Assembly (NCBI GenBank): GCA_000002435.2
Contig: CM018791.1
DNA: 64,000 nt
Strand: one strand, 5' to 3'
Origin: Giardia intestinalis
Lineage: Eukaryota
Shown here: positions 3,315-61,047 of the stretch, piece by piece
Position numbering within the stretch: position 1 is the first letter of the stretch
Layout of the letters: each line of letters opens with the position of its first letter
Notes under the pieces: generated by a model
The model's input: only the letters and a program-made list of their open reading frames with translations
Databases searched by the model: none
Told to the model about the DNA's origin: nothing
Program-made: the position numbers and the translations under genes

Positions 3315-3462
3315 GGCAGATAAACTAGTGTGATTTACAGTAATATACCACGTTTGACAGTGCACTAATGCTAGTTAGGTCACCATGTTAGTTGTATTTC
3401 GTAGTAATAGTAGTAAGTAGTCGAACAGTGTCGAAGATATAGCTACATCTCGCTGTGCTTAG

Positions 3463-4416: not shown

Positions 4417-4431
4417 TTAGTATCTATTATA

Positions 4432-4447
4432 ATGTGACATGTCACAT
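4432..4447. promoter_or_regulatory. Perfect 16-bp palindrome ATGTGACATGTCACAT in the 108-bp divergent promoter between the PDI-like gene and the DMT transporter gene
   Basis: Read directly from the sequence: 'aATGTGACATGTCACATgag'. The sequence is its own reverse complement. It sits 16 bp upstream of the minus-strand ATG at 4416 and 78 bp upstream of the plus-strand ATG at 4525. Confidence 0.3.
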
Positions 4448-4524
4448 GAGTAATTAATAATCAGTTAAAATCACCATGCTCTTAAGGATTCATTTTTGTA
4501 TCGTTCACAATCACTACAGGCTCG

Positions 4525-30907: not shown

Positions 30908-33064
30908 CTAGAAGAGCAGAATAAATTGAAATATGAGAGAAGTAACAGTAAGTCCCAAGGACACCATCATAAGGATAAGAAATGTTATCTTCTTAGTGCG
31001 GGGCGCTATAATCTTAACGCGAGAGAAATCCGGTAGGGTGCCCATGACGACGATCCCAACAGCATACTGGGTGTGTTCCAGGGAGATTTTCTCAGAGCCT
31101 TGAGGCCCGGCCAAGACTACGTCCTTCGCAATTGTTTCGTATCCAAGTTCCACGCTTCCATCCATACCAGAGAGTGTATCGTCAATGAGCATCTTCTTCT
31201 CTTTCATTCGAGAAGTCACACTCTTGAAGGTATCCAGCTGGGATATCGACGCTTCCCTGTTGCATGGCTCTATGCTTTCGAGGTCGTCTTCTGTGATTTC
31301 TCTATGTAGAGATGCCTTAGACTCTATGTTCCGTCTGGTTACTGCCAAGATGTCTTTCTCCACAGCGGCGCCTTTACGTGGTTCTCTTCTAGTCCCAGGC
31401 TCGGCTGCCTTGCTGTACAGGGTAATGCTTCTTAGTGACTTGCTAGCGGTGGACTTACGCAGGCTCTGCCTCTCTCTATCCGGGATGCCGTCACATTTGG
31501 ACGGCGTGGTAGTACCTGAACACGAGGAGCCGGACGACGAGCTAGTTTCTGACGAATAAAAGTCAAGCAGGGCAGAAGAGTCCGATGACTCGTCGTCTAA
31601 GATATTATTCTCTCTGTAACGGGCTGCAATGGCACACAAGTCTATGTTCCGCCCAGCAGACATCCTGCGCAGGTAGGGCAGTTTATAGCGGATAACGAGA
31701 GGCACAAGTACGCAGACAATGCTGCCTAGAACGCTGGCGGCCAAGGAGGAGAGGATTGTCAGATTTGGAATTACCAGCGTGAGTGCAAGCGTGAAGCAGA
31801 TGATAGGCCCGGAGACTAATAGGTATAGGAGACGCGTTCTGCATGGAATGGAGCCCTTTTCCTTATTGCCCTGCGCATGTAGGCACGCCAATTCGGGCTC
31901 TGAAAGTGTTCTTCCTATAGGGAGCTTTGGCGAGTATCCTGCCAGCTTATGAAGAGATGCCAACCAAACGTTTTCTTGTGCAACTGCGGAATTATCAGGC
32001 TTTCTTCTAATAACCTTTGATGCATAAGGGATCAGCATGTTTCCCAGGACAATGATCTTCACAACTGCCACGAGCACTAGGGAGGCAGTATAAAGGATCA
32101 TGATTACAAGAACGCCAAATGGCATGATGTACTCCTTAGAAAAGGGATCCCTGTATACCAAAGACATGACATAGTTGTCTTGTAGTAAGATGCAATCCGT
32201 ATCGACTGCCGTACAGGTACCATCGAAGAAGAACACAGAAACAATGGAAACACCAAATGACAGGACCAATATAACGCCCACTGTGAAGAAAATGGTGGAC
32301 GCTGCCCACCGGTAACGGGATGAGTATGAGCCCTGCTGCTTGTTTTGCTGTCCGATAAGGGTAGGCGATATCCATAAGCAGTATAAGTAGTAAAAGGGAG
32401 AAAAGACTCCTGGTTTTGTGTGAAACTCAAAGGGCACAAGGGGAGCTGGGGGAGGGTCATGTCTGTAGCTGTGTACATATCCAGTCCTACGCCAATCTCC
32501 ATAGACTACGCAAACACACAAGAAAACGATGATGAAAAGAAAGCCAGCGACGGCACACCCAATTGTAAGACCGTGAAGGGTTCCCCGAGGCAAGAGAGTA
32601 AACGGAAGAATAACGACAATGCAGTACAACAACTTAATGAGTATATAAACTATGGGGTCGACCTTTTGAGTAAGCTGGCTGAGCTGTGCATACGCACCAA
32701 GGGTTTGGTCAACTAAGGCTAAAATCTCTGGGGCAGGAAGGTATGTAAGCATCGTGCTTATCGCTGCAAAGTGGTAAGCCCAAGGCCTCAAGACACGAGC
32801 TAGAAGATCCACAAGCGACGATGACGCCATGTGGTAGGCTGCTTCTGCCAGTACGATCTGCGCGTAAACGGAGTATGCAGCAGACAAAAGCATCAAAACG
32901 ACGGAGAGAGGAATCCCTAGTACATGCATAAAGCGTGGTGCCGCAAGGAGTAGGGGCGAAAAGCTGCAGAACAAGATTAGGGTGCTTGCTCCGACATACG
33001 CCTTCACACTCGATTCTCTCATGGGCGCTACACCTGAATGAGAAGCCTCCTTGGCCGTCAGCAT
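30908..33064 (-). CDS. Polytopic membrane protein, probable second amino-acid/solute transporter paralogue
   Basis: 718 aa with more than 10 TM helices and a Ser-rich cytosolic loop. Same orientation as, and adjacent to, the AAAP transporter. Confidence 0.55.
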   Translation of the reverse strand: MLTAKEASHSGVAPMRESSVKAYVGASTLILFCSFSPLLLAAPRFMHVLGIPLSVVLMLLSAAYSVYAQIVLAEAAYHMASSSLVDLLARVLRPWAYHFAAISTMLTYLPAPEILALVDQTLGAYAQLSQLTQKVDPIVYILIKLLYCIVVILPFTLLPRGTLHGLTIGCAVAGFLFIIVFLCVCVVYGDWRRTGYVHSYRHDPPPAPLVPFEFHTKPGVFSPFYYLYCLWISPTLIGQQNKQQGSYSSRYRWAASTIFFTVGVILVLSFGVSIVSVFFFDGTCTAVDTDCILLQDNYVMSLVYRDPFSKEYIMPFGVLVIMILYTASLVLVAVVKIIVLGNMLIPYASKVIRRKPDNSAVAQENVWLASLHKLAGYSPKLPIGRTLSEPELACLHAQGNKEKGSIPCRTRLLYLLVSGPIICFTLALTLVIPNLTILSSLAASVLGSIVCVLVPLVIRYKLPYLRRMSAGRNIDLCAIAARYRENNILDDESSDSSALLDFYSSETSSSSGSSCSGTTTPSKCDGIPDRERQSLRKSTASKSLRSITLYSKAAEPGTRREPRKGAAVEKDILAVTRRNIESKASLHREITEDDLESIEPCNREASISQLDTFKSVTSRMKEKKMLIDDTLSGMDGSVELGYETIAKDVVLAGPQGSEKISLEHTQYAVGIVVMGTLPDFSRVKIIAPRTKKITFLILMMVSLGLTVTSLIFQFILLF

Positions 33065-33178: not shown

Positions 33179-35065
33179 ATGGGAAAGGGAACCACGCCTA
33201 AAACGTCCCAAATAGGCTCGGCTGCCGCCAGCCGAGTTACTCCTTCGTCCATGAAGATCTCTCACACAAATATAAAGAGTAAAGCGCAGACCCCGACCTC
33301 GTCCATGACCAAATCTTTGAACAGCACAGGTCAGCGCATTAAGGGGATGGTCAAGTCCCTCTTTGGCACTAAACCTCTCATCCAGGAGGATATGGAGCCC
33401 TCAGGGTCTTCTTCGGAGATGATTCCCTTGCCAACCAAGCCTATACCTGGCAAATCCCAGAGTTCGCAGACAAGTCACACTCCTAGGAGATCAACAAGGC
33501 AGTCCGATGACAAGTCTTCCACGCGTGAGACTGGACCTGCGCCCGTGACCGCTAGTAGCCCCGATGCACAGCAAGCAGAGACCCTCTTTCCTGCGGCGAT
33601 CGCCACGCTTGCCACCATGGCCAACGCAGCACTCGCGCAGGCCCTCACGAACCCTCAGGCGTCTGCAGCCCTGACATCATCACTTATTTCGTCTCAAGGT
33701 CTCTCTACACGGGACTTAGCACTAACGACCTCAAATTTACAGCCGCCTCAACCTAGTATCGAGTACCCAGCCTCCTTTGGGGCTAATTACAATTCCCTAA
33801 GCAAATCTGTGACACAGCCACCTCCGTCTATTAATCAGCCATCTCTGCATCCATCGGCCGCGCCTACAGAGCAAGAGTATGTTATTTTTCCTGCGTCAAT
33901 CATAAACATGTACATGGCCATGAGAAATAAGGGAACAGATGTGGCACAGAGCTCCGTACAGCACGTGAGACCAGCGATGGCAAACTCTTTACCGGTACAG
34001 CAAGCTACAGAGTCTTTTGTGTCCACGAAGCGCACGGTCCACTTTGAGGCTCCATCAAAGGATACAGTTGGCCTCTCCAATTCGACGGGGTCTATAATCC
34101 AAGGAAGCGCCCTTGAGATATCAGCAGGGGCTGCGGAGAAGGAGCCAGCTCCTAAGAAAGTCATCATACGTGAAGATCCCAAGCCCGTGGAGCCTCCAAA
34201 GCAGGATACTAGTGTCGCTGACGCAAAACCAGCTGTTCCCGATCAACCCAAGAATGAACCTTCGAAGCCGACTGGTACGTTTTTGTTTGGAAAGGCAGAT
34301 TTTAGTGTAACCAGTTCAGCTTCAACAGCTAAAGATGGGCAACCGCCCTTAGCTGATTCTGCTTCTACATCCAACACTCAGAACAAGGCTGTTACTTATT
34401 CATTTAAATTTGGAAGCACCTCTGAGGATACGAAGAGCAATACATCCTCTAATCCGCCGGGGCCTGATTCCGATTTGAAGAAGGAGGAGACTGCAACTGG
34501 AGATAGCGCTGCATTCAAATTATCGCAAACAGACAATGTCCCGAAACCTCCATCGAAAGGTTTTGTCTTTGGTGCCCCAGTAGCGCCTGCACAGCAACCA
34601 CCGCCTCCTTCAACTCAGCTAACCACAAAGCAAGAGCAGCCTCCAGAGCAAAAGAAGGATCACCCGGTCTTCTCATTCGGGTCTATGTCTGCATCGACTA
34701 CACAAGGGTTTGGATTTAAACCCCCGGCAGATGAGCCCAAATCGACACCAGTCGCACCTACTGCAGGCTTCTCCTTCACTGCCCCCCAGACGGGCGCTAA
34801 ACAGACAGGTGCGTTTTCCTTCCAGGTATCTACCCCTCCTGTGCAATTTGGAGCGACAGGAAGTAACGCCGCATCATCTACCCAGCCCGGTTTTAGTGGC
34901 TTTGGTGGGTTTGGCGGCGGCTCCTCTAGTCAGTCCGTCTTTGGTGCGGGCGTGTCTCCATTTGGTACACAACCTTCAACGACCGACGGGGCCTCGGGAC
35001 CTCAGGCAGGATCCTTCGGCTCCTTCACCTTCTCTAATCCGTCAATCAAACCGCAGCTCTCTTAA
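33179..35065 (+). CDS. FG-repeat (FxFG-type) nucleoporin candidate
   Basis: S/T/P/Q-rich and natively unstructured. The C-terminal 260 aa carry about 12 FG motifs spaced 15-30 aa apart: FLFGKADFS, FKFGSTS, FVFGAP, FSFGSMS, FGFKPP, FSFTAP, FSFQ, QFGATG, GFSGFGGFGG, SVFGAG, SPFGTQ, SFGSFTFS. Confidence 0.55.
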   Translation: MGKGTTPKTSQIGSAAASRVTPSSMKISHTNIKSKAQTPTSSMTKSLNSTGQRIKGMVKSLFGTKPLIQEDMEPSGSSSEMIPLPTKPIPGKSQSSQTSHTPRRSTRQSDDKSSTRETGPAPVTASSPDAQQAETLFPAAIATLATMANAALAQALTNPQASAALTSSLISSQGLSTRDLALTTSNLQPPQPSIEYPASFGANYNSLSKSVTQPPPSINQPSLHPSAAPTEQEYVIFPASIINMYMAMRNKGTDVAQSSVQHVRPAMANSLPVQQATESFVSTKRTVHFEAPSKDTVGLSNSTGSIIQGSALEISAGAAEKEPAPKKVIIREDPKPVEPPKQDTSVADAKPAVPDQPKNEPSKPTGTFLFGKADFSVTSSASTAKDGQPPLADSASTSNTQNKAVTYSFKFGSTSEDTKSNTSSNPPGPDSDLKKEETATGDSAAFKLSQTDNVPKPPSKGFVFGAPVAPAQQPPPPSTQLTTKQEQPPEQKKDHPVFSFGSMSASTTQGFGFKPPADEPKSTPVAPTAGFSFTAPQTGAKQTGAFSFQVSTPPVQFGATGSNAASSTQPGFSGFGGFGGGSSSQSVFGAGVSPFGTQPSTTDGASGPQAGSFGSFTFSNPSIKPQLS

Positions 35066-35074
35066 GGCGCTTAG

Positions 35075-35707
35075 TTAAGGACGACACACTGGTGGGCTAT
35101 ACTGCTCATGAATGCCTTTGTAAAGGGAAAAAAGCTTACAAAGGAAGTGCTTTTCACTTCTATCAGAATCTTTGGGGTCTCCGGATGTTTCTACGATGCG
35201 GTTAGTGAAAAAGCGCTCTAAGTTCACGTTGTAGCGGGCGCTATAGCAGTGTGCTTGACAAAGCATATCTATCTTATCGATAACGTGGGCTGCACGCGCA
35301 AGCGGAGAGTGAGCATCTTCATACATTGTAAACAGCTCTTTATAGAGTGCTCCCATGCGATGGAGACCAGAGTTGCAGAGGAGTAGTACCAGTTCTCTCA
35401 TAGCTGAAGCCTCTTGCATACGCTTTTCGGCGGCAGAGACCTTGCTCAGAGACTCGGGAATAATGTCACCGACGATAGACTCAGCCAAGTCGTGAAGGAG
35501 CATCATACAAACAAGACGTGTGCGCCTCTGCGGATCTAAGCTCACTGAGGAATCGAGGGCTACACAGGCCGTGGCGTAGCTGTGGTCAGCGACAGACTCA
35601 ACACAGCCAATTTCGGGATGGAGTGTCCAGCCAGTTCGTGGCAGGCAGCAGAGCCGATCCAGTAAAGCGTAAAAAGCCAAAAACGACTGCACACGGGAGG
35701 AGAGCAT
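35075..35707 (-). CDS. HD-domain phosphohydrolase (HDDC2/YfbR-like 5'-deoxynucleotidase family)
   Basis: '...LPRTGW...ESVADHSYATACVALD...' plus 'LVCMMLLHDLAESIVGDIIP' (the H..HD..D metal-binding motif). Confidence 0.75.
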   Translation of the reverse strand: MLSSRVQSFLAFYALLDRLCCLPRTGWTLHPEIGCVESVADHSYATACVALDSSVSLDPQRRTRLVCMMLLHDLAESIVGDIIPESLSKVSAAEKRMQEASAMRELVLLLCNSGLHRMGALYKELFTMYEDAHSPLARAAHVIDKIDMLCQAHCYSARYNVNLERFFTNRIVETSGDPKDSDRSEKHFLCKLFSLYKGIHEQYSPPVCRP

Positions 35708-35746: not shown

Positions 35747-38700
35747 TCAGCAGCGAGCTGCCTTTAAGAATTGTCTGTATATGTTACTCGTACGCACAAA
35801 CGTTATGGAGTGCATGCTATAAAGGTAAGCTTCTAAAAGCCTTGCTCGTTCCCTAATAAACTCCGGCTTCCAGCCGCCCAAAGCGTAAGGCCTGTCGGGT
35901 GGGATGTCAGGCAAAGTCGCTGCAGGATAGGCCGCAGAGATTGCCGCGTGAAGCTCCTTGACCTCCGAAAAGCGGCAGCTTATGTGGAGCCTCCTGCCGT
36001 CCATGCCCAGCTCAATGTAGTAACTAATGAAGGGTCGCGACCCAGAAATAATAACAGTGCGGTGGCTCAACACCTTGACATAGAAACTGGAGCATGACGA
36101 GGTGTCGACGAACAGGGATACATGTCTGCCGCTATCCCTATGCTTGTTGCTTCTAACTATGGACGATGCAGCTCCATGGCCACTCCTTCTAATTGCACTC
36201 AGTGTCTGCACAGACGGATCATACTCAACAGAATCGGATTCTCTCTCTAGTTGAGCCTCGATGTTGTGCCGTAAAGCCTGAAGCTCCTTGTCGCGCCTTT
36301 CACGAAGGCGAATCTCACGCATCAGCTCTCTATCCAAAAGAAGGCCACTATTAGTTGTGTCTATCGCAGAAGACGTCGTAGAGTTGGACTCTATCTGCGA
36401 ATTGACAGCGAAGCGTTTCCTCTCTGCCTCAAGTTTTTGGTACTCACGGTCAGCTTTGCGATTGGCCCGTTCAATCTCCTTGTCCATCCGCAACTTCTCT
36501 TCGGCTAAAAGACGCCGCAGCTCTTTCTCTTCCTGCCGTTTCTTCTGCTCCTCAATCTTTCGAAGTTGCTCTTCACGCAATTTCTCTGCCACGGCGATGT
36601 CTTCGCTGTGAGAGGACTCTGTTAGAGATGATACGGTTGTAGACGTCTCGCGCTCCATAGGCTCCTTCTTGTCCTTCTGCTGCTTCTTAGCAATCTTCTT
36701 ATCTGCACGACGCGTCTCGGTAGTGGATTTGATGGTGGAGTGGGGCTTAGACGAAGAAGTGTCTCCGTTAATCTTCTGTGGCTTTTCTGCTGGTGCGTCT
36801 TTAGTTTCCTTAATGAGGTCGGGCTTCTTCTTGATTGCGCTAGTCTTCTTTTTGTCTGCTTCATGCTTCGGTTCCTTCTCAGGCTTCTCAAGCTTCTTCT
36901 CCTTCTTCTGCTTGGCAGCATGATGCTTTTCCTTGGCATGTTCATCCCTCTGATGCTCCGCTTTATGCTTGGTATGTGATTTGGGAAGATGCTTTGGTGG
37001 AGTGTGTAGTTCTACAACAGGTGTATTCAGCCTATCAACATACAGGCTATCACTATCCTCATTATCGACGACCAAACTTATCGCAGGAGTATCAAGCCTG
37101 GATACAACCAAAGAGTCCTCCTGCACTTCTTGTTCTGTACGTAGAGCTGCATGGCCTGTCTCGTCCTCAAGCCCTTGAGGCTCTTCCTCTTGGCAGTATA
37201 GGTCCTCCTCGGCCTGGCGCAGCATCTCCTCCTCTTCACGTCGCGCCTGCTCAAGCATCTCTGCCTCTTTGCGAGCCATTTCAATATCAAATTCATCCAG
37301 CGTCTCTTCCGGAAGCTGAAGTACCCCTTCCGGTGTAGGCTCATATTCTTGTTCGTGGACCGACACCTGCTGTTCAATATAAGGCTCTTCTTGGCATACA
37401 TCAGAAGATTGTGCTAGCCCAAACGACCCATCGAGAACGTCAGGAGTTGCGACACGATCAACAACCAAATCCTCAGAAGGCAATAGCAGGCTCTCTGGCC
37501 CATGCGAGTCAGGTGGGGCAAAGTCGTCCGGAGTACTATCACAAGGAGTGACCTGACGATGGACCGAGCTTGCACAGCTATGTTCCTCTAGGGCTGGCTG
37601 TCCCCATTGAGATATCTCGCTTTTGAGTTCATCAATAAGGTCACTGTCTTGTATTCTCTCGAATGAATCCGATTCAGTCTTGTTAGAAATGTGCTCCAGA
37701 GGTGGAGCTGTCTCCATATCAGGCAAGCTCTCCAGGTCCTTGATCTCAGGGGTGTGTACTACCGCATCCTCAATGATAGCCTCCGCCTCACGAATGCTTC
37801 GTTCTGTCTCCGGGTCTGTTTGCAGTCTGGAAACAACATCCTCAGATACGTACTCATCAGCGTTGGAGAAGCTTCGCAAAAGCTCTACCTCCTGACTGCA
37901 TTGCGGTTCCTCGCTCAGGACCTGCTGTAAAGACTCGTCACAAGGTAGAGCCATGCTTATCTCCTCGCGGCTCTCAATAGGTACTAGCTGTTGTGGTTGT
38001 ATGTCCCTGAAGACTCTGTCCGCTCCAACAGCTGCGCGCAAACGCAGAATCTGATCTATGACCAGCATCTTCCTGACTCTGCGGAGATGCTCGAGCAGAG
38101 CTGCTGAGTCTTCTGCTTGAGCGGGGTCGACGACCTCTGGCCCTTGAGCAAAGGCTGTCTGAGGACTGGGGTCAATGGGGACTGAATCAGAAGGCGTAGG
38201 TACCCTGGAGACGCATATCGGAACGGCTGAGATGTCATTGTCTGAGAACGGCATAACTGGAGTCACATCAGAAAAGGCAGCCAAATCTGGGGCAGGTGCC
38301 TCACTAATTGCGGCAGGCGTCGATGGCGCATCATCAAAGCCAAAGAAGCCGAAAGCATCATTAGGCTCGATAGCGTCGGGGACCTCAGCGGCGCCATCCG
38401 CAAGGTTAGCCCCAAAGCCGAACATTTCATCCGGCTGCTCTGCAGGAGGGTCATTGGTGTTTGTTGGTTCGAGCATGTATTGTGGCTGGACATCATCGTT
38501 GTCGGGATTCTCGGGCCTAGGGGCCTCATCCTTACAGGTGTCCACGGGCTGGTCTTGTGGCTCATCATCAATAGGCCCTGCCTCCAATTTGGGTTCGTCG
38601 TTGTGCAGTTCCTGAGGATCATTGTAAGCATTATCTTCTGGCAAGCCATAGGCATATGCGTATGGGTTGGAACCATCACCGGCCACGTAAGGGGCGCCAT

Positions 38701-38824
38701 AGTAGTCCATGTCCGCGGCCATTGCGTAGGGGTTCTGGTGGTCACCAGTGGTCTCGTCCTGGCTCGTCCCGTAGTCCCCCCATCCATAGGCTTGGTATCC
38801 GCCCTGCTCCTGATCACCGTCCAT
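35747..38824 (-). CDS. PX-domain protein (C-terminal PX) with N-terminal acidic FGF motifs and a K/E-rich coiled-coil (GlPXD-family-like)
   Basis: C-terminal PX: 'YYIELGMDGRRLHISCRFSEVKELHAAISAAYPAATLPDIPPDRPYALGGWKPEFIRERARLLEAYL'. N-terminal 'EMFGFGAN' and 'DAFGFFGFDDAP'. The ORF-track start at 38881 is GTG; the first ATG at 38824 is preceded by 'cttaaaaaaATG'. Confidence 0.75.
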   Translation of the reverse strand: MDGDQEQGGYQAYGWGDYGTSQDETTGDHQNPYAMAADMDYYGAPYVAGDGSNPYAYAYGLPEDNAYNDPQELHNDEPKLEAGPIDDEPQDQPVDTCKDEAPRPENPDNDDVQPQYMLEPTNTNDPPAEQPDEMFGFGANLADGAAEVPDAIEPNDAFGFFGFDDAPSTPAAISEAPAPDLAAFSDVTPVMPFSDNDISAVPICVSRVPTPSDSVPIDPSPQTAFAQGPEVVDPAQAEDSAALLEHLRRVRKMLVIDQILRLRAAVGADRVFRDIQPQQLVPIESREEISMALPCDESLQQVLSEEPQCSQEVELLRSFSNADEYVSEDVVSRLQTDPETERSIREAEAIIEDAVVHTPEIKDLESLPDMETAPPLEHISNKTESDSFERIQDSDLIDELKSEISQWGQPALEEHSCASSVHRQVTPCDSTPDDFAPPDSHGPESLLLPSEDLVVDRVATPDVLDGSFGLAQSSDVCQEEPYIEQQVSVHEQEYEPTPEGVLQLPEETLDEFDIEMARKEAEMLEQARREEEEMLRQAEEDLYCQEEEPQGLEDETGHAALRTEQEVQEDSLVVSRLDTPAISLVVDNEDSDSLYVDRLNTPVVELHTPPKHLPKSHTKHKAEHQRDEHAKEKHHAAKQKKEKKLEKPEKEPKHEADKKKTSAIKKKPDLIKETKDAPAEKPQKINGDTSSSKPHSTIKSTTETRRADKKIAKKQQKDKKEPMERETSTTVSSLTESSHSEDIAVAEKLREEQLRKIEEQKKRQEEKELRRLLAEEKLRMDKEIERANRKADREYQKLEAERKRFAVNSQIESNSTTSSAIDTTNSGLLLDRELMREIRLRERRDKELQALRHNIEAQLERESDSVEYDPSVQTLSAIRRSGHGAASSIVRSNKHRDSGRHVSLFVDTSSCSSFYVKVLSHRTVIISGSRPFISYYIELGMDGRRLHISCRFSEVKELHAAISAAYPAATLPDIPPDRPYALGGWKPEFIRERARLLEAYLYSMHSITFVRTSNIYRQFLKAARC

Positions 38825-38973
38825 TTTTTTAAGATACAGAGGCAAAAGGCATCGAGGGGCGGCACTGCGGTCGTGTTTCACTTATTTTCCCCCGGCTGTG
38901 CGGATTCCTCTGTGGCAGCCACGCTACACTAGAGTATTCTTTAACAGTCCACAGGACTCCATGTGGGAAAAAA

Positions 38974-55611: not shown

Positions 55612-58600
55612 ATGGAGGACATTGCCTACACCGACGGATACGCTGCGCAGTACGGAGATAATTATGCATATGATGGGTATGGCTATGGTGGTGACCTGGC
55701 TGTGGGAGATTACAATCCGTACGGAACGGACTATGGTTATGATGCAGGAGGCTACGACTATGGTGCCGGGTACGGTGGGTATGGGAATCAAGAGACTGGA
55801 TATGGCGATCAGACATATGGATATGGTGAGCCTGCTGAGCAACCGCAAGACAGTTTATCGCTTAAGCTGGACGAGCCGAAGCCGTTTACTGAGCAAGACG
55901 ATGGGAGGTCCCTCGTCGTCCGTACTGATGCGGCGTCTGTGTCCATGGATCCTTTTAGTGCGCCCATAGATACAGTGACAGAGCCCATAGGTTCACAGAC
56001 GCACACGAGCTCCGCTTTTCCACCTGTCTCTCAGGACTTGCTGAACTCTATCAGGGTCCAGCAAGAGACTAGTGGAAACCTGAGTAAGTCTCCAAGCAAA
56101 ATCTCAAGCAGGCCTGCCTCTGCTAGACTTGACGAGCTTGATAAGGTAATCGAAGAAGATGCAGAACAGCTTAATAGGGAGGCCAAAACAGATACTCACG
56201 TTACTGGTGCTGCCCCCGATACTAGCGATATGTTTGGCTTTACTGACCAACCGGCGGCACCAACAGCTACCGAAGAGCCTGTCGCAACTGCTGGTGACGA
56301 CATGTTTGGATTTGGGCTAGAAAGTGACGCGCACGATGCAACGGTTCAGCCCCCAGTTGAAGATGCAGGGCCTGCTCTACCTGATAAAGAAGCTCCCTCC
56401 ACTGAGGCCGAAGACGATATGTTTGGCTTCGCCACATCTCCTCAGGAGACCATAGCCAGCCCTCCAGCAGGCTCCACCGCCCCTGCTGCTGAGCCTGTTG
56501 ACGACATGTTTGGCTTCACCGATCCTGCCGTCGAATCAGCGGCTACTGCAGAGCCAGGAACAATGGAGGGCGATGATATGTTTGGATTTGGCCCCTCAGA
56601 AAGCACACCTAAAGATCCTGACACTGATGCATCTGCAGTAGCTAAGGATGTAACGGTGGACGCTCAAGATGCTGCCGATGATATGTTCGGTTTTGATGGA
56701 GCGGGCTCCCCTGCAGAGGCTCCTGCACAATCAACCGAAGCAGTAGCAAGCCCAGTTGCTGACTTGGAGACGGACAGCATGTTTGGCTTTGATTCTCCGC
56801 CAGCCCCAGCAGATAATACTACTACTGTGCCTGTGGATGATTCGGCGGATGACCTGTTCGGATTTGGGCCTTCCACTTTAGATGCACAAGGTGAGCCCGC
56901 CCAAGATGCTCAGCCAGATATTCAAGATGTGGCACAAGTCTCCGCTGACAGCATGTTTGGCTTTGACTTGCCAGCTGATGCCTCGGCAACTGTGGAGCCA
57001 TCAACTACCGGCCTTGCTACTGAGAAGCCAGAGGATTCTCCTGTCGATGACATGTTCGGCTTTTCTCCAAACGAAGCAGCAGCTACAGCCAAGTCAGATG
57101 AGGATCAAGAGATAACGCCGGTGAACACCAAGACTTTAGACGAACCATTGTCAGTAGCAAATGATTACACCCAACCAACAGCTGGGCCCTCAGATGACAT
57201 GTTCGGCTTTGGAAACAGCGCAGATCTTCCTCAAACAGATTCTGTACCCCACTCTGGAGCCACGGCTGATAGCATGTTTGGATTTGACTCTGTACCAGCA
57301 ACAGGGGCCTCGGTAGAACCACCAACAGAGACGCCAGAGCTTCACGACGCATCTCAGACACAACCTACTTTGGACATGCCAACAATTCCAGAGCACATCC
57401 CAACTATAGAGGATAACCAAACGGACCTGTCACATGAGAGTCAAAATGAGAGTCAAGTTGCAAGTGAAGAGTCTGATCAGCTAAGAGAGACCAATGAGAC
57501 GCTGGAAGGAGAGGAAATGAATAAGGAACTGGCACAAGAGCCCGCTGTAGAGGATATGTTTGGCTTTGGGGATGCATCAGCGCCAGTGGAGGATTCCTCA
57601 ACAGAAAAGGCCACTGAAAGCCACCCAACTGAGCCACCTAATTTAGCAGATCTTCCACCTCCTGTGTCTGCATCATCACTGCTTCCCGTGCAGACACTTG
57701 AGTCTGCGAAGCAATCCGCAAGAGCTGCAACTACCCCAGTGGCCGATATGGCCATTGATATAGATTCTATGATCTCGGCTGCACTAGTTCCACAGCAACC
57801 CTCCCCCGCTCCTGAACAGAAGGTCGAGGACCAAGTTCTTGACGAATCCTCGCCTAACGTGATAACTGCAGAGCTTCCTCCCATTGTTGTGAAGGGATCT
57901 TTAGAAGAGGCCAACGACAAGTCTGCCGCAGAGTCGCAACATGAACCAGTAGAGCTCTCGGAGGACCGTGACCTCAGTAAAGATATCGAGCTGGTTGCTC
58001 AAGATCCTCTACCGGCCGAGGAGGATACGCAGGATATTTTTGTTGAGCCAGCTGTGCCAGTTGAAGCTCTAGAAAGGTTGGCGATCAGCGAAACGTTCAT
58101 CAAGCTCCAGGAGGAGCTTCAATTTACATACCTGATGCCAGAGCCTAACCGCGAAGAACTAGACAAGCTCCAGATGACTGATCATGAGCAGCAGCTTATT
58201 CAACTTAAGGACGAAGCGGAGCGGCTACAGAGAGAGAATAAGGTGCTCGCAGGCAGAAGTGCGGCTCCCAGGCATCTCCACCCTAACGAGTTTGATAGCA
58301 AATCTATCTCAGTTAGCTTCTTCGAGGGTCTTCTGAATGAGCCCACCCACAGTGATGGCATATCCCTAACGACTGGGGAAGAGCTTCGGCTCTTGGCGAT
58401 TCTGGAGCAGGGAGACTACGAAGCACTTGATGCTCTTCACGGCATGTCTCCAGAGGAGCTTCAGTTAATGGAGCAACGAGAACGCGAGTTCAATTTGAAG
58501 CTCAAGGAACTCACCGACCGCCGAGACGAGCTGTTGTACAAGGATGATACGGAGGCTTTAAAACTCATTGAGGAAGAGATCTGGGCCTTTGTAGACGCTG

Positions 58601-61047
58601 AGGAAGAAAAGAAAATGCGCATCCAAGCGGCAGACGACCTTTTGAAAAAGCGTGCTCAGGAGGAAGAGGACCGACGTCGTGCTGAGATAGAAGCAAAGAT
58701 CAAGGAGGAGCAGGATCGTGTTGCAGAGGAGCGCCGACTCCAGGAAGAGATGATAGCGCTCCAAAAGAAGCAGCAGCAAGAGTATGCAGAGCAGGAGACT
58801 AGGAAAGCAGATCTTCTCCGTGAGGCCATGGAAAAGGAGCAACTAGAGCGAATTGAGGAGGAGCAGCGCATAAAAGCAGAGGCACGACGACGCCTAATCG
58901 ACGATCTGGAGGCCACAGCTGAACGCGCAGCCGCCGAGGACCGGATACGGGTTAAGGCTGAGTTGGAAGAAATGGCCAGGATCAAAAAGGAACTGGAGGA
59001 GGCTGCCCGGACGGCCAGCGAAGAGAAGCGAAAGCTTCTTCTACAACAGAAGGAGCAATTGGAAAGAGAAATGGCCGAGACAGCAAGACGACACGAGGAA
59101 GACGTGGCGCGTAGGCACAAGGAGCTGCAAACTCTTCATGAGGAGCGGCGGAAGATGCGCGAACAACGCTTAGCCAGCTCAGAACCGATGGATGAGCTTC
59201 TTCGCGAAGATGGCAACGATGCCTCTGCCGATCCGTTCTCATATGCGTCTCTGGACATTGAGCGCAGAATCAGGGAAATGAAAGCCCAGTTAGAGAAGGA
59301 GATGACCGAAAAGATGGCCCTAGAGCACGCTGACCTCAATGCTCTAGAGCAGGAGTTGGCTGCTAAGAAGCTGTCGACCTTACAAGCAGAACGACTCTTA
59401 AGCACGGCTGCAAGCGATACAGTGGCACGGCTCGATAACGAGGATCGTCTCTTTAACGAAGCAATGGATGCCAAGCGCCAGGAGCTGCTTCTTTTGAAAG
59501 AACAGTATGGACTCGTGCGTCACCAGAACGAAAGTCAGCGCGCCTTGCACCTAGAGGAGCAGAGAAAGGCTAAGAAGTTAGCGAGGTTAGTCGAACAAGT
59601 TGCCGAGCTAGCCGAGAAGAAGCACAATTTAGAAAGAAAGATTGCCCATGGAAACAAAGAGTTTCACAAGAAAGAGAGCAAGCTGGTGGCTTCTAACAGC
59701 AAAGGCGCACTCAAAGCGTTGAGAAAGGAGCACGCTAAGGAGCACGAGGCGTTGGAGACGCAGCTCTCTAGCGTCTCAGAGCAGTTACGCAGAGCAAAGA
59801 AGCAGCTCAAGGTACTTAACCCCCAGGGAGAGACTTCTGATATGGACCGATCTCTTAGTGTCAAAGACTATTTGCGCTCCACAGATCGGAGTGAGAAAGA
59901 GCAAGAAGTGTCCGCTGCAGATAAGGACCATTCCCAGCCGCGTCTGTCCGTCTTCGAGGGAGGCTCTCTTGGCCAACCTTCGTTGGTAAGCGGCCATGGA
60001 ATTGGAACAGCGATGTCAACAGGTGTGGACCACGGAGATGGAGGGAGAAAGCAACATGCATCCAGTGACTTGCCTGTAGCGCTGCAGAAGCTGAGAGAGG
60101 AGCACGCTCGCAGGCTTGAGAAGATTGAGCAGCGACGAGCAGCCTTTGCTTCGGAAAGGGAGCAGCTTCAAGCCCAGGCACACGCGCTCGAGGCTCAGCT
60201 TTCCAAGCCCGTCAACGTTCCTGATTCTAAGCTACGCACCAGAGAGCAGCGCAAGCAGATCATTTTCGCAGAGATGAATAGAATGGAAAAGCTGTCGAAG
60301 GCACACATGGTTGAAGTTAAGCCTCAGATCCCAGAGAAAACAATCGATGACATTCTTAACGAACGCCGCAAACGACACGGGGAGGAGCGTGAGCAACTAA
60401 AGAACATGGCAGTGCGCTTTACATCTGCGTACGATCGGCATTCCCGGGTCTCTGTTAACATGGACAGCAGCGACGACGAATGGAATGACCTAGCTGCACG
60501 GACCTCCTCACGTTATGCAGATATTTCTGCTAAGCCACGCTCGATGCAGGCGCAGGTCCGCCAATTTGCATCTGATCGGATAGATCCTGCCTTCAATAGC
60601 TACATCGAGGCCCCTGTGCGACCTGGCTATGAGTCCTCTCTCCTCTCGTATGTGAAGGTGAGCTCTGACCCTACTACGTGCCACCCGACCAAGTTTGTGG
60701 CTCGGCTCACTGCACACACCTGGTGCATTGAGCAGAAGAGCAAGCCGTATGTGGTCTATACGTTTACAATCAGCACAGAGAAGGGTGTCTTTGAAGTAGC
60801 GAAGCGCTTCTCTGAGCTGCGTGAGCTGGACAAGGCGCTCCGTCGCGTTTTCCCAACAGTTACTTTGCCCAAGTATCCGTCGTCTATGGGAGGGAAGTTT
60901 ACTGATGAACAACTGGAGGAGCGGAAGCGGCTCCTTGGGCGCTATATGAGCCAGCTGAATCAGATCGCGGTCATTAGAACAAGCCAGGTGTACAAGGAGT
61001 TTATACAGATGAAGGTGAGACACGATATCCTTGTATATCACCGGTGA
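55612..61047 (+). CDS. Giant PX-domain protein (1811 aa): a 13-copy acidic 'DDMFGF' motif array, then a long E/R/K-rich coiled-coil, then a C-terminal PX
   Basis: N-terminal Y/G-rich segment. 13 copies of (D/E)(D/S)(M/L)FGF(G/D/T/S) at irregular spacing of about 25-35 aa. A coiled-coil of about 650 aa. C-terminal PX 'YVVYTFTISTEKGVFEVAKRFSELRELDKALRRVFPTVTLPKYPSSMGGKFTDEQLEERKRLLGRYM'. Confidence 0.8.
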   Translation: MEDIAYTDGYAAQYGDNYAYDGYGYGGDLAVGDYNPYGTDYGYDAGGYDYGAGYGGYGNQETGYGDQTYGYGEPAEQPQDSLSLKLDEPKPFTEQDDGRSLVVRTDAASVSMDPFSAPIDTVTEPIGSQTHTSSAFPPVSQDLLNSIRVQQETSGNLSKSPSKISSRPASARLDELDKVIEEDAEQLNREAKTDTHVTGAAPDTSDMFGFTDQPAAPTATEEPVATAGDDMFGFGLESDAHDATVQPPVEDAGPALPDKEAPSTEAEDDMFGFATSPQETIASPPAGSTAPAAEPVDDMFGFTDPAVESAATAEPGTMEGDDMFGFGPSESTPKDPDTDASAVAKDVTVDAQDAADDMFGFDGAGSPAEAPAQSTEAVASPVADLETDSMFGFDSPPAPADNTTTVPVDDSADDLFGFGPSTLDAQGEPAQDAQPDIQDVAQVSADSMFGFDLPADASATVEPSTTGLATEKPEDSPVDDMFGFSPNEAAATAKSDEDQEITPVNTKTLDEPLSVANDYTQPTAGPSDDMFGFGNSADLPQTDSVPHSGATADSMFGFDSVPATGASVEPPTETPELHDASQTQPTLDMPTIPEHIPTIEDNQTDLSHESQNESQVASEESDQLRETNETLEGEEMNKELAQEPAVEDMFGFGDASAPVEDSSTEKATESHPTEPPNLADLPPPVSASSLLPVQTLESAKQSARAATTPVADMAIDIDSMISAALVPQQPSPAPEQKVEDQVLDESSPNVITAELPPIVVKGSLEEANDKSAAESQHEPVELSEDRDLSKDIELVAQDPLPAEEDTQDIFVEPAVPVEALERLAISETFIKLQEELQFTYLMPEPNREELDKLQMTDHEQQLIQLKDEAERLQRENKVLAGRSAAPRHLHPNEFDSKSISVSFFEGLLNEPTHSDGISLTTGEELRLLAILEQGDYEALDALHGMSPEELQLMEQREREFNLKLKELTDRRDELLYKDDTEALKLIEEEIWAFVDAEEEKKMRIQAADDLLKKRAQEEEDRRRAEIEAKIKEEQDRVAEERRLQEEMIALQKKQQQEYAEQETRKADLLREAMEKEQLERIEEEQRIKAEARRRLIDDLEATAERAAAEDRIRVKAELEEMARIKKELEEAARTASEEKRKLLLQQKEQLEREMAETARRHEEDVARRHKELQTLHEERRKMREQRLASSEPMDELLREDGNDASADPFSYASLDIERRIREMKAQLEKEMTEKMALEHADLNALEQELAAKKLSTLQAERLLSTAASDTVARLDNEDRLFNEAMDAKRQELLLLKEQYGLVRHQNESQRALHLEEQRKAKKLARLVEQVAELAEKKHNLERKIAHGNKEFHKKESKLVASNSKGALKALRKEHAKEHEALETQLSSVSEQLRRAKKQLKVLNPQGETSDMDRSLSVKDYLRSTDRSEKEQEVSAADKDHSQPRLSVFEGGSLGQPSLVSGHGIGTAMSTGVDHGDGGRKQHASSDLPVALQKLREEHARRLEKIEQRRAAFASEREQLQAQAHALEAQLSKPVNVPDSKLRTREQRKQIIFAEMNRMEKLSKAHMVEVKPQIPEKTIDDILNERRKRHGEEREQLKNMAVRFTSAYDRHSRVSVNMDSSDDEWNDLAARTSSRYADISAKPRSMQAQVRQFASDRIDPAFNSYIEAPVRPGYESSLLSYVKVSSDPTTCHPTKFVARLTAHTWCIEQKSKPYVVYTFTISTEKGVFEVAKRFSELRELDKALRRVFPTVTLPKYPSSMGGKFTDEQLEERKRLLGRYMSQLNQIAVIRTSQVYKEFIQMKVRHDILVYHR
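56227..57570 (+). repeat. In-frame array of 13 degenerate repeats encoding the short linear motif D-D-M-F-G-F (DNA core 'gayrryatgttyggmtty') separated by divergent acidic spacers
   Basis: Recurring 'gatatgtttggcttt', 'gacgacatgtttggattt', 'gatgatatgttcggtttt', 'gacagcatgtttggcttt' and similar at about 56227, 56299, 56416, 56500, 56572, 56672, 56776, 56848, 56950, 57043, 57193, 57270 and 57553. Confidence 0.7.

What the first reader, a model, noticed from the sequence alone, without database searches (positions are those of the whole stretch)
33179..35065. Candidate FxFG nucleoporin in a lineage with a poorly defined nuclear pore
The 628-aa protein is Ser/Thr/Pro/Gln-rich and predicted disordered. 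Its C-terminal 260 aa carry about 12 FG motifs, mostly FxFG or SxFG, spaced by hydrophilic linkers, and the protein ends in 'GSFGSFTFSNPS'. This is the compositional signature of FG-Nups such as Nup153, Nup2 or Nsp1. Diplomonad FG-Nups are hard to detect by homology, so a composition-based candidate is worth testing.
Basis: inference. Interest (0 to 1): 0.55.

Follow-up and report, generated by a model that had tools for sequence, protein, structure and literature searches.

The report
Candidate Giardia FxFG nuclear-pore protein
This is a real, conserved Giardia gene for an almost wholly disordered protein whose C-terminal end carries selectively preserved FxFG motifs, so it is a credible but unproven candidate for one of the missing transport-channel proteins of the Giardia nuclear pore.

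Summary
The ORF at 33179-35065 (+) is exactly as described. It is GL50803_16478 of Giardia duodenalis WB, annotated "hypothetical protein", and no searchable paper names it.

It has 13 FG dipeptides against 2.2 expected, 11 of them in the last 260 residues. It has 4 FxFG against 0.1 expected.

Syntenic orthologues exist in five G. duodenalis-complex lineages, in G. muris and in a G. muris-like relative, and nowhere else. Across them the FxFG count is held at 3-5 while the spacers diverge. In the FG region, 12 of 25 Phe are invariant against 12 of 238 other residues. dN/dS is 0.04-0.43 in every region tested.

AlphaFold finds no globular domain. It predicts only short conserved helices: a basic amphipathic helix (aa 45-62), a helical region (131-187) and a helix at 239-253. 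The FG domain contains no Arg, Trp or Cys.

No Pfam, PDB or profile hit links the protein to any named nucleoporin family. FG density alone is not specific here: a PX-domain protein in the same window is equally FG-dense, but its motifs sit in an acidic MFGF context.

Verdict: a plausible FG nucleoporin (about 0.6). Its layout is most like the basket nucleoporin Nup60, and Nup1/Nup153 share the membrane-binding helix. Localisation is untested.

The parts
33179..35065 (+). Complete gene GL50803_16478, 628 codons plus TAA stop. Single copy. Flanked by a 718-aa multi-pass membrane protein (30908-33064, -) and an HD_3-domain protein (35075-35707, -).
   Evidence: Synteny with the same neighbours in assemblage B, in two unnamed G. 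duodenalis-like lineages, in G. muris and in a G. muris-like relative. dN/dS 0.04-0.43 in all regions.
33179..33478 (+). aa 1-100: basic, Ser/Thr-rich N-terminal region. Unusually conserved for a predicted disordered segment.
   Evidence: Mean identity to the WB sequence 84% and 67% invariant columns among five orthologues. dN/dS 0.12. This is the segment that HMMER can still align with G. muris (profile positions 19-173, E=4.9e-9).
33311..33364 (+). aa 45-62, KSLNSTGQRIKGMVKSLF: predicted basic amphipathic helix. Hydrophobic face L47/I54/M57/V58/L61/F62; basic residues R53, K55, K59 and K65 just beyond the segment. Candidate membrane- or partner-binding anchor.
   Evidence: Predicted helix 48-62 and 41-62, pLDDT about 52-57. 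It is the highest hydrophobic-moment 18-mer of the whole protein (0.52; the 95th percentile is 0.35). The homologous site is also the top scorer in G. muris (0.58) and in P0023 (0.66). The function is inferred.
33479..33568 (+). aa 101-130: fast-evolving linker.
   Evidence: 7% invariant columns and mean identity 49%. dN/dS 0.43.
33569..33739 (+). aa 131-187: Ala/Leu/Thr-rich helical region (three predicted helices) containing 'LFPAAIATLATMANAALAQAL'. It is the most constrained part of the protein and is not a transmembrane segment. Candidate pore-docking region.
   Evidence: Helices 131-157, 159-173 and 177-187, seen again as 128-155, 159-173 and 177-184. aa 131-260 has dN/dS 0.04. Lowest summed Hessa insertion energy for a 19-mer is +4.05 kcal/mol, against -3.79 for the neighbouring membrane protein; maximum Kyte-Doolittle score 1.46.
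33869..33937 (+). aa 231-253, EQEYVIFPASIINMYMAMRNKGT: conserved short helix and the best-predicted element of the protein. Candidate short linear interaction motif.
   Evidence: Helix 239-253 with block pLDDT 60-74. E231, E233, Y234, V235, P238, S240, I241 and Y245 are invariant, G. muris included.
34028..34045 (+). aa 284-289, KRTVHF: conserved island matching the PP1-docking RVxF consensus [RK]-x(0,1)-[VI]-{P}-[FW]. G. muris has SRSVRF.
   Evidence: R285, V287 and F289 are invariant in the six orthologues aligned, inside an otherwise variable stretch; P0023 carries the same SRSVRF. The match to the consensus rests on my own knowledge of the motif. Roughly 0.6 such matches would be expected by chance in a protein of this size (my estimate), so only the conservation is notable.
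34274..34678 (+). aa 366-500: FG sub-domain 1. Four canonical FxFG cores (FLFG, FKFG, FVFG, FSFG) separated by long charged spacers of 36-53 aa. Gly 5.9%, D+E+R+K 20%.
   Evidence: This corresponds to the 'low Gly, high DERK' group II of FG domains defined in PMC2742445. pLDDT below 50 from residue 371.
34679..35062 (+). aa 501-628: FG sub-domain 2. Seven FG plus three FxF motifs at short spacing. Gly 17.2%, D+E+R+K 5.5%, Phe 11.7%. Contains the 9-bp x3 array (34892-34918) encoding FGGFGG.
   Evidence: [quoted passage not shown]

Best explanation
GL50803_16478 is most likely a Giardia-genus-specific FG nucleoporin. On this model the disordered C-terminal 260 residues project into or next to the nuclear pore channel. 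Their FxFG, FxF and FG phenylalanines give multiple weak, fast-exchanging docking sites for the hydrophobic pockets of importin-beta-type receptors or NTF2-like factors. The non-FG N-terminal half holds the protein at the pore. It would do this through an array of short conserved elements rather than a folded domain: a basic amphipathic helix (aa 45-62) that could sit on the pore or inner nuclear membrane, a helical region (aa 131-187) that could dock on scaffold nucleoporins, and further short motifs (aa 231-253, 284-292, 302-309). This order of elements is the one described for yeast Nup60. Nup1 and NUP153 share the membrane-binding amphipathic helix, so a position on the nuclear-basket side is the most specific guess.

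Shown here: the gene is real, conserved and under purifying selection; the FG domain is predicted disordered; Phe and FxFG are selectively retained.

Inferred, not shown: pore localisation, karyopherin binding, membrane binding by the helix, and basket position.
For: 1. FG enrichment: 13 FG against 2.2 expected, 8 FxF against 1.5, 4 FxFG against 0.1, with 0 of 3000-5000 shuffles reaching the observed values.

2. The FxFG count is maintained across the genus. It is 4-5 in five G. duodenalis-complex lineages, 4 in G. muris and 3 in a G. muris-like relative, each against about 0.1 expected. Yet HMMER can align G. muris only over the N-terminal ~155 aa.

3. Selective conservation of Phe in the FG region:
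- 21 of 25 Phe invariant against 74 of 238 other residues in five orthologues (p=3e-7);
- 12 of 25 against 12 of 238 in seven orthologues (p=4e-8);
- 17 of 20 against 94 of 213 in the independent G. muris pair (p=6e-4).
Rapid spacer evolution with retained FG motifs is what PMC2742445 describes for FG nucleoporins, citing Denning and Rexach 2007.

4. Predicted disorder. pLDDT is below 50 for all of 371-628, and there is no globular domain anywhere.

5. Composition of the FG region (aa 366-628). Phe is 9.5% against 3.45% in the other ORFs of the window, a 2.8-fold excess; PMC2742445 reports about 3-fold for FG domains. There is no Trp, Cys or Arg, with 17 Lys, and net charge is 0. Large hydrophobic residues other than Phe and Val (W, Y, I, L, M, C) make up 2-4%. 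The two sub-domains match the two Gly/DERK groups of PMC2742445.

6. The non-FG half is more conserved than the FG half (dN/dS 0.04-0.12 against 0.16-0.30). It contains the protein's top amphipathic segment at the same site in three divergent orthologues. [quoted passage not shown] It also fits the Nup60 plan of AH, HR, short motifs and then an FG region (PMC8836807).

7. No signal peptide-like or transmembrane segment and no other domain.

8. In T. brucei, every recognisable FG-repeat protein in the genome turned out to be in the pore proteome (PMC2742445).
Against: - No homology to any nucleoporin. Pfam, NCBIfam, PDB sequences and a 1.84-billion-protein profile search gave no hit outside Giardia.
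- There are no localisation, interaction or expression data, and no paper names the gene.
- The FG number is modest and not conserved. The G. muris orthologue has only 5 FG, with at most 4 in any 200 aa. That is just under the '5 FG per 200 aa' working threshold of PMC8311347.
- Spacers between the first four FxFG are long (36-53 aa).
- FG-dense non-pore proteins are common (PMC8311347). A PX-domain protein in this very window has the same FG density.
- The helices are low-confidence predictions (pLDDT 50-74) from shallow alignments of 5-6 sequences.
- The Phe-conservation statistic is partly inflated, because aligners anchor low-complexity regions on rare residues such as Phe.
Confidence: 0.6

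Rival explanations
1. It is a non-pore FG low-complexity protein. For example, it could be a scaffold of a cytoplasmic or nucleoplasmic condensate, where the Phe motifs drive cohesive self-association rather than receptor passage. Non-pore FG proteins of this kind are known, such as the P-granule GLH helicases, keratins and filaggrin in animals.
For: About half of the top FG-dense proteins of C. elegans and human are not nucleoporins (PMC8311347). FG density is not specific in this genome either. No pore-anchoring domain is recognisable. The Gly-rich 'GFSGFGGFGGGSSS' stretch resembles keratin or GAR-type glycine loops; that resemblance is from my own knowledge.
Against: The conserved units are FxFG and FxF, not FGG or RGG. 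The variable Gly-rich FGG part is exactly what is lost in G. muris, while FxFG is kept. The FG region has no Arg, which argues against an RGG/GAR-type RNA-binding region. There is no helicase, RRM or other RNA-binding domain.
Confidence: 0.22
2. It is an endocytic or secretory accessory protein. Its Phe-containing short motifs would recruit clathrin or adaptor appendages, like the FG-dense PX-domain proteins encoded nearby.
For: Two PX-domain proteins in the window carry repeated FGF motifs in disordered regions. The ORF at 55612-61047 has 13 [ML]FGF copies, and the ORF at 35747-38881 has 'EMFGFG' and 'AFGFFGF'. The latter lies two genes downstream of the candidate, and this arrangement is conserved in G. 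muris.
Against: The motif context is quite different. Flanks within 6 residues of FG are 27% D/E and 0% K/R in the PX protein, whose FG region has net charge -98. In the candidate the flanks are 4% D/E and 3% K/R, with net charge 0. The candidate has no PX, ENTH, EH or other membrane-traffic domain. Gene adjacency in Giardia is not evidence of shared function.
Confidence: 0.05
3. It is primarily a disordered regulatory or scaffolding subunit, for example a PP1-targeting protein acting through the conserved RVxF-like KRTVHF motif. On this reading the FG motifs are incidental or serve another partner.
For: R285, V287 and F289 are invariant in all orthologues, inside a variable region. PP1 regulators are typically disordered and lineage-specific (my own knowledge).
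Against: An RVxF match is expected by chance about 0.6 times in a protein of this length (my estimate). It does not explain the selective retention of 3-5 FxFG. It is also not exclusive of the main explanation: some nucleoporins dock PP1, for example MEL-28/ELYS (my own knowledge).
Confidence: 0.08
4. It is not a real gene: a chance ORF in a compact genome.
For: None beyond the lack of annotation and of detectable domains.
Against: An intact syntenic ORF of 563-650 aa is present in seven lineages. dN/dS is 0.04-0.43. An A-rich initiator-like sequence lies directly upstream of the ATG.
Confidence: 0.01

Closest known systems
Yeast Nup60. Nup1 and metazoan NUP153 share the membrane-binding amphipathic helix. 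These are nuclear-basket nucleoporins tethered by an amphipathic helix.
   Same: The order of elements matches. The layout described for Nup60 (PMC8836807) is an N-terminal amphipathic helix binding the inner nuclear membrane, an adjacent helical region (aa 48-162) docking on the pore core, several short conserved motifs in a disordered chain, and an FG region at aa 381-504. The candidate has an amphipathic helix at 45-62, a helical region at 131-187, conserved islands at 231-253, 284-292 and 302-309, and an FG domain at 366-628. My own knowledge adds that Nup60 is of similar size (539 aa, against 563-650 aa here) and has a small number of FxF-type motifs.
   Different: No sequence similarity could be shown. 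There is no NUP153 zinc finger. Membrane binding by the helix is untested. The candidate's FG domain runs to the C-terminus and has more FG motifs in G. duodenalis. The resemblance could be convergent, since Giardia orthologues are undetectable outside the genus.
   Same: FxFG cores with small or hydroxyl residues before and after (xFSFG, xFKFG, xFVFG). Lys-rich, Arg-free charged spacers in sub-domain 1. Predicted disorder.
   Different: Nsp1/Nup62 have the FG domain at the N-terminus and a C-terminal coiled coil (Nsp1_C). Nup2/Nup50 end in a Ran-binding domain. Nup153 has RanBP2-type zinc fingers. None of these domains is present.
Trypanosome lineage-specific FG nucleoporins (DeGrasse et al. 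2009, PMC2742445)
   Same: These are FG proteins with no detectable homology outside their lineage. They were recognised only by FG pattern, disorder and a small helical anchor, and were later confirmed at the pore. They show the same two Gly/DERK classes of FG domain.
   Different: Those proteins were found in nuclear-envelope proteomes and were tagged. This one has no experimental support.
POM121 (vertebrate membrane-anchored FG nucleoporin)
   Same: An N-terminal membrane-associated element, a long disordered middle and a C-terminal FG domain (my own knowledge).
   Different: POM121 has a true transmembrane helix. The candidate's most hydrophobic 19-mer is far from insertion-competent (+4.05 kcal/mol).
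Acidic [ML]FGF-repeat PX-domain proteins of Giardia (window 55612-61047 and 35747-38881)
   Same: Repeated Phe-Gly-containing motifs in a long disordered region, at equal FG density (12 against 11 per 260 aa).
   Different: Strongly acidic context (net charge -98), a DDMFGF core rather than xFxFG, followed by a coiled coil and a PX lipid-binding domain. This is a different motif class and serves here as a negative control.

Membership tests
FG nucleoporins (functional class) | Multiple degenerate Phe-Gly motifs clustered in one domain | tested here: met
   13 FG against 2.2 expected, with 11 in the last 260 aa. 4 FxFG against 0.1 expected. At most 9 FG in any 200 aa. In G. muris the total drops to 5 FG, of which 4 are FxFG.
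FG nucleoporins (functional class) | FG domain natively unfolded, with hydrophilic or charged spacers and few large hydrophobic residues | tested here: met
   pLDDT below 50 for all of 371-628. No W, C or R in 366-628. W, Y, I, L, M and C together make up 2-4%.
FG nucleoporins (functional class) | Phe about 3-fold above the proteome mean in the FG domain (PMC2742445) | tested here: met
   9.5% against 3.45% in 29 other ORFs of the window, a 2.8-fold excess. The background is only a local proxy for the proteome.
FG nucleoporins (functional class) | FG motifs conserved while spacers evolve rapidly, with the anchor part more conserved than the FG part | tested here: met
   Phe invariant at 12 of 25 positions against 12 of 238 for other residues across seven orthologues. 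An independent G. muris pair gives 17 of 20 against 94 of 213. dN/dS is 0.04-0.12 for the N-terminal regions against 0.16-0.30 for the FG region. Caveat: alignment anchoring on Phe inflates the statistic.
FG nucleoporins (functional class) | A small structured or helical domain that anchors the protein to the pore | tested here: inconclusive
   Conserved predicted helices at 45-62, 131-187 and 239-253, but pLDDT is only 50-74. No coiled-coil domain or other homology was found.
FG nucleoporins (functional class) | Localisation at nuclear pore complexes | not testable with these tools
   No localisation data were found in the literature searches.
FG nucleoporins (functional class) | Phe-dependent binding of karyopherins or NTF2 | not testable with these tools
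   The structure tool predicts one chain only and accepts only sequences of this window or proteins returned by the homology search, so a complex with a transport receptor could not be modelled.
Nsp1/Nup62 family | N-terminal FG domain plus a C-terminal Nsp1_C coiled coil | tested here: not met
   The FG domain is C-terminal, and there is no Pfam hit even at E<=10.
Nup98/Nup145N/Nup100/Nup116 family | GLFG repeats and a C-terminal autoproteolytic beta-sandwich domain | tested here: not met
   Zero GLFG and no Pfam hit.
Nup2/Nup50 family | C-terminal Ran-binding domain | tested here: not met
   No Pfam hit. The C-terminus is FG-rich and disordered.
NUP153 family | RanBP2-type zinc fingers and the Nup153 N-terminal domain | tested here: not met
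   No Cys at all in the protein and no Pfam hit.
Nup60/Nup1-type basket nucleoporins | N-terminal amphipathic helix that binds membrane | tested here: inconclusive
   The best amphipathic 18-mer of the protein is at aa 45-62 (moment 0.52, net charge +4). The homologous site is also the top scorer in G. muris and in P0023. Lipid binding is untested.
Nup60/Nup1-type basket nucleoporins | Sequence homology to Nup60 or Nup1 | not tested
   No Nup60 or Nup1 profile was available for a direct profile-profile comparison. Pfam and PDB searches gave nothing.
POM121 | Transmembrane helix | tested here: not met
   Minimum Hessa sum is +4.05 kcal/mol, against -3.79 for a control membrane protein.

The most novel reading that the evidence does not exclude
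Giardia anchors part of its transport barrier with a genus-specific, membrane-tethered 'suspension-cable' FG nucleoporin: an amphipathic helix, a helical docking region, short motifs and then FxFG repeats. This protein would be the functional counterpart of Nup60/Nup1/NUP153. That design would then either date back to the last eukaryotic common ancestor and have diverged beyond recognition, or have arisen convergently in metamonads. Either way, the protein would be the first experimentally usable bait for mapping the otherwise almost invisible diplomonad nuclear pore.
Probability: 0.27. Interest if true: 0.65.

Novelty: new member of a known kind. Interest (0 to 1): 0.45.

Why it matters
Comparative genomics recovered only a handful of nucleoporins in Giardia, and it deliberately excluded proteins recognisable only by FG repeats (PMC2951903). 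In the searchable literature I found no study of the composition of the Giardia nuclear pore. The transport barrier of the diplomonad pore is therefore essentially undescribed.

A conserved, single-copy FxFG protein with a plausible anchor gives a concrete, cheap experiment: tag it, then use it as bait. In trypanosomes, finding the lineage-specific FG proteins went hand in hand with establishing the whole pore inventory (PMC2742445).

If confirmed, the protein would also bear on two questions. One is whether the amphipathic-helix-tethered basket design is ancestral. The other is how Giardia's two nuclei are equipped with pores.

If it is not a nucleoporin, it is still a useful negative. It would show that FxFG signatures are not pore-specific in this lineage.

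Tried and rejected
1. Sequence homology to known families. All of the following gave nothing outside Giardia:
- Pfam at E<=1 and E<=10, on the whole protein and on each half;
- NCBIfam;
- PDB sequences with the single protein, with the N-terminal profile and with the FG-domain profile;
- the word-indexed 5.8-billion-protein search with the protein and with the N-terminal profile;
- an exhaustive HMMER profile search of 1.84 billion representatives.

2. A 'nearest-neighbour' test with a profile of the FG domain alone. It returned no scored hit at all, not even the orthologues. The candidate list was swamped by low-complexity proteins, so the result is uninformative.

3. Fold search was not run. 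Both AlphaFold models have mean pLDDT around 40 and no globular part, so any match would be meaningless.

4. The transmembrane-anchor (POM121-like) idea for 'LFPAAIATLATMANAALAQAL' was rejected on insertion energy.

5. N-myristoylation of the MGKG start was rejected. Lys after Gly2, and Pro at the sixth motif position (P7 of the protein), violate the consensus (my own knowledge), and G. muris starts MSRR.

6. A secreted or cyst-wall protein was rejected. The N-terminus is hydrophilic and the protein has no Cys.

7. An origin of the motifs by recent tandem duplication was rejected.

8. Literature. The supplementary alignments and tables of Neumann et al. 2010 contain neither peptides of this protein nor the number 16478 as a gene identifier; the only matches to '16478' there are digits inside numeric values. 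Supplementary tables of Giardia proteomic papers could not be searched globally.
Full report
**Observation**

The window is Giardia duodenalis assemblage A (WB). The ORF at 33179-35065 (+) encodes 628 aa. It is 100% identical to GL50803_16478, annotated 'hypothetical protein'.

S, P, T and Q make up 43.8% of the protein, against 24.4% in the other 29 long ORFs of the window.

There are 13 FG dipeptides, 11 of them in the last 260 residues. Shuffling the protein gives 2.2-2.3 expected, and 0 of 5000 shuffles reach 13.

Four motifs are canonical FxFG: FLFG 368, FKFG 409, FVFG 462 and FSFG 498. The expected number is 0.1, and 0 of 3000 shuffles reach 4. Three are SxFG, and there are three further FxF (FSF 531, FSF 546, FTF 616). 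There is no GLFG.

Minor corrections: 'GSFGSFTFSNPS' is followed by IKPQLS, so it is not the very end.

At the DNA level there is no tandem-repeat structure, apart from a 9-bp x3 array encoding FGGFGG. The motifs are therefore not a replication-slippage artefact.

**Is it a real gene?**

Yes. Intact orthologous ORFs of 563-650 aa lie in the same gene neighbourhood in all lineages where the DNA could be read. The neighbourhood is a 718-aa membrane protein upstream, then an HD_3 phosphohydrolase-like gene and a PX-domain gene downstream. This holds for:
- assemblage B;
- an unnamed G. duodenalis-like lineage from sequencing runs ERR3333381, SRR17450158 and ERR3333379;
- G. muris, gene GMRT_12723;
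- a G. muris-like relative, P0023.

Assemblage E (GLP15_431) and one more lineage (P0004) add protein sequences.

Nei-Gojobori dN/dS is 0.04-0.43 in every region and every pair tested. Synonymous sites are near saturation, so these values are rough.

An A-rich stretch typical of Giardia initiators lies directly upstream of the ATG (the interpretation rests on my own knowledge).

**Anatomy**

AlphaFold2 finds no globular domain, either with the five-sequence alignment or with a six-sequence alignment of the N-terminal half. Mean pLDDT is 37.9 and 41.2 respectively.

Only short helices are predicted: aa 41/48-62, 128/131-187 (three helices) and 239-253. The best of them reaches a block pLDDT of 60-74. 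Every residue of 371-628 is below 50.

Conservation runs opposite to what a simple 'disordered means unconstrained' view predicts:
- aa 1-100: 84% mean identity to WB;
- aa 131-260: 79%;
- the linker aa 101-130: 49%;
- the FG region: 64%.

dN/dS is 0.12, 0.04, 0.43 and 0.16 for those same regions.

Within the N-terminal part, aa 45-62 (KSLNSTGQRIKGMVKSLF) has the highest helical hydrophobic moment of the whole protein: 0.52, against a 95th percentile of 0.35. The homologous segment is also the top scorer in G. muris (0.58) and in P0023 (0.66).

The Ala/Leu-rich helix at 136-156 is not a transmembrane segment. Its summed insertion energy is +4.05 kcal/mol, against -3.79 for a helix of the neighbouring membrane protein.

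Further conserved islands are EQEYVIFPASIINMYMAMRNKG (231-252), KRTVHFEAPS (284-293, which fits the PP1-docking RVxF pattern) and STGSIIQG (302-309).

**The FG domain**

The FG domain (366-628) has two parts:
- aa 366-500 carries the four FxFG cores, separated by 36-53-residue spacers. Gly is 5.9% and D+E+R+K is 20%.
- aa 501-628 is dense in FG and FxF. Gly is 17.2%, D+E+R+K is 5.5% and Phe is 11.7%.

These correspond to the 'low Gly, high DERK' and 'high Gly, low DERK' groups into which yeast, human and trypanosome FG domains fall (PMC2742445).

The whole FG region lacks Arg, Trp and Cys. It has 17 Lys and net charge 0. Phe is 9.5%, which is 2.8 times the local background of 3.45%. This is close to the roughly 3-fold excess reported for FG domains.

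**Evolutionary test**

If the Phe motifs are the functional units, they should be retained while the spacers drift.

In five G. duodenalis-complex orthologues, 21 of 25 Phe in the FG region are invariant, against 74 of 238 other residues (Fisher p=3e-7).

An exhaustive profile search of 1.84 billion representative proteins found only one further relative, the G. muris protein. HMMER could align it only over profile positions 19-173 (E=4.9e-9). Yet its C-terminal end again carries AFSFG, GFVFP, GFSFG, VFSFG, GFQFG, GFSFS and VFGLG. A second profile search added the G. muris-like P0023, which has the same set of motifs.

Across all seven sequences, 12 of 25 Phe are invariant, against 12 of 238 other residues (p=4e-8). 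In the independent G. muris/P0023 pair the figures are 17 of 20 against 94 of 213 (p=6e-4).

The FxFG count is 4, 4, 4, 5, 4, 4 and 3 in the seven proteins, against about 0.1 expected. The total FG count, in contrast, falls from 13 to 4-5 in the G. muris lineage. The conserved core is therefore a small set of FxFG/FxF motifs. The Gly-rich FGG part is lineage-variable.

Caveat: aligners tend to anchor low-complexity regions on rare residues such as Phe. This inflates the column statistics. The motif counts do not depend on the alignment.

**Control for specificity**

FG density alone is not diagnostic in this genome. The 1811-aa ORF at 55612-61047 has 18 FG, with up to 12 in 260 aa, which equals the candidate.

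Its motifs are 13 copies of an acidic [DS][DS][ML]FGF unit, in a region with net charge -98. They are followed by a long coiled coil and a C-terminal PX domain.

Within 6 residues of FG, the flanks are 27% D/E and 0% K/R in that protein. In the candidate they are 4% D/E and 3% K/R, with 56% S/T/G/A.

So motif context separates the two proteins, whereas the count does not. A review of non-pore FG proteins makes the same general point: about half of the most FG-dense proteins of C. elegans and human are not nucleoporins (PMC8311347).

**Comparison with what is known**

No Pfam, NCBIfam or PDB-sequence match exists for the whole protein, for either half, or for profiles of either half.

- There is no Nsp1_C coiled coil, and the FG domain is at the wrong end for Nsp1/Nup62.
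- There is no Ran-binding domain, which excludes Nup2/Nup50.
- There are no zinc fingers, and indeed no Cys at all, which excludes Nup153.
- There is no GLFG or autoproteolytic domain, which excludes Nup98.
- There is no transmembrane helix, which excludes POM121.

What the protein works like is a separate question. Its order of elements is the plan described for yeast Nup60: an amphipathic helix on the inner nuclear membrane, a helical region (aa 48-162) on the pore core, short linear motifs, and an FG region at aa 381-504. The same paper describes the amphipathic-helix function as shared with Nup1 and conserved in metazoa, and names NUP153 among the lipid-interacting basket components (PMC8836807).

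This is an architectural analogy, not demonstrated homology.

**Literature status**

The locus tags of the WB, P15, assemblage B (GL50581) and G. muris genes occur in no main text of the searchable library.

The main comparative study of nucleoporins lists Giardia candidates for Nup107, Nup155, Nup35, Nup54, Nup98, Rae1 and Sec13. It explicitly discarded proteins recognisable only by FG repeats (PMC2951903). Its supplementary files contain no peptide of this protein.

No study of Giardia pore composition was found. Supplementary tables of proteomic papers could not be searched globally, and papers outside the library may exist.

**Verdict**

I put the probability that this is a pore-associated FG nucleoporin at about 0.6. 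For the more specific membrane-tethered, basket-type reading I put it at about 0.27.

The main rival is a non-pore FG low-complexity protein (about 0.22). A role in membrane traffic or as a PP1-targeting subunit is less likely, and the PP1 idea is not exclusive of the main explanation.

It would be a new member of a known kind, not a new kind of system. Its value is practical: it is a conserved, single-copy, easily tagged entry point into an essentially uncharted nuclear pore.

Noticed in passing
window 55612-61047 (+): An 1811-aa ORF with 13 copies of an acidic [DS][DS][ML]FGF[GDTS] motif in a very acidic disordered N-terminal region (aa ~190-700, net charge -98). This is followed by a long coiled coil and a C-terminal PX domain (PF00787, aa 1724-1799, E=1.3e-13). 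It is as FG-dense as the candidate but clearly belongs to a different motif class. The motif may be an adaptor- or clathrin-binding one; it resembles acidic-FG gamma-ear motifs, which is my own knowledge. The N-terminus is also a striking Tyr/Gly/Asp-rich low-complexity stretch.
   Followed up: partly
window 35747-38881 (-): A second PX-domain protein lies two genes downstream of the candidate, and this arrangement is syntenic in G. muris. It also has 'DEMFGFGANL' and 'NDAFGFFGFDD' in an acidic disordered N-terminal region. The acidic FGF motif therefore seems to be a shared feature of Giardia PX proteins.
   Followed up: no
window 34028-34045 (aa 284-289): KRTVHF (SRSVRF in G. muris and in P0023) matches the PP1-docking RVxF consensus. 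It is an invariant island in an otherwise variable stretch of the candidate.
   Followed up: partly
window 34478-34489 (aa 434-437): A 'KKEE' island (K435, E436 and E437 invariant in the six-sequence alignment, G. muris included) sits in the middle of a fast-evolving FG spacer. It may be a further short linear motif.
   Followed up: no
window 34892-34918: A 9-bp x3 array (TTTGGTGGC) encodes FGGFGG. This spot is length-variable among assemblages: there is a deletion in assemblage B and insertions in P0004 and P0005. The Gly-rich part of the FG domain therefore changes by slippage, while the FxFG cores stay fixed.
   Followed up: partly
L005 5629-7935 (G. muris CM016926.1): In G. muris a PIF1-family helicase gene lies directly upstream of the FG-protein gene, after the membrane-protein gene. 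It is absent at this position in G. duodenalis, and is the only break in an otherwise conserved gene order.
   Followed up: no
P0002 (GLP15_431, assemblage E): The annotated protein starts 8 residues upstream (MFQIREQK) of the MGKG start used by the other four G. duodenalis-complex orthologues. This is probably a mis-called start codon in that annotation.
   Followed up: no
window 35063-35077: The stop codon of the candidate (35063-35065) and the stop codon of the convergent HD_3 gene (the ORF ends at 35075) are only 9 bp apart. The two 3' ends must therefore overlap at the transcript level.
   Followed up: no
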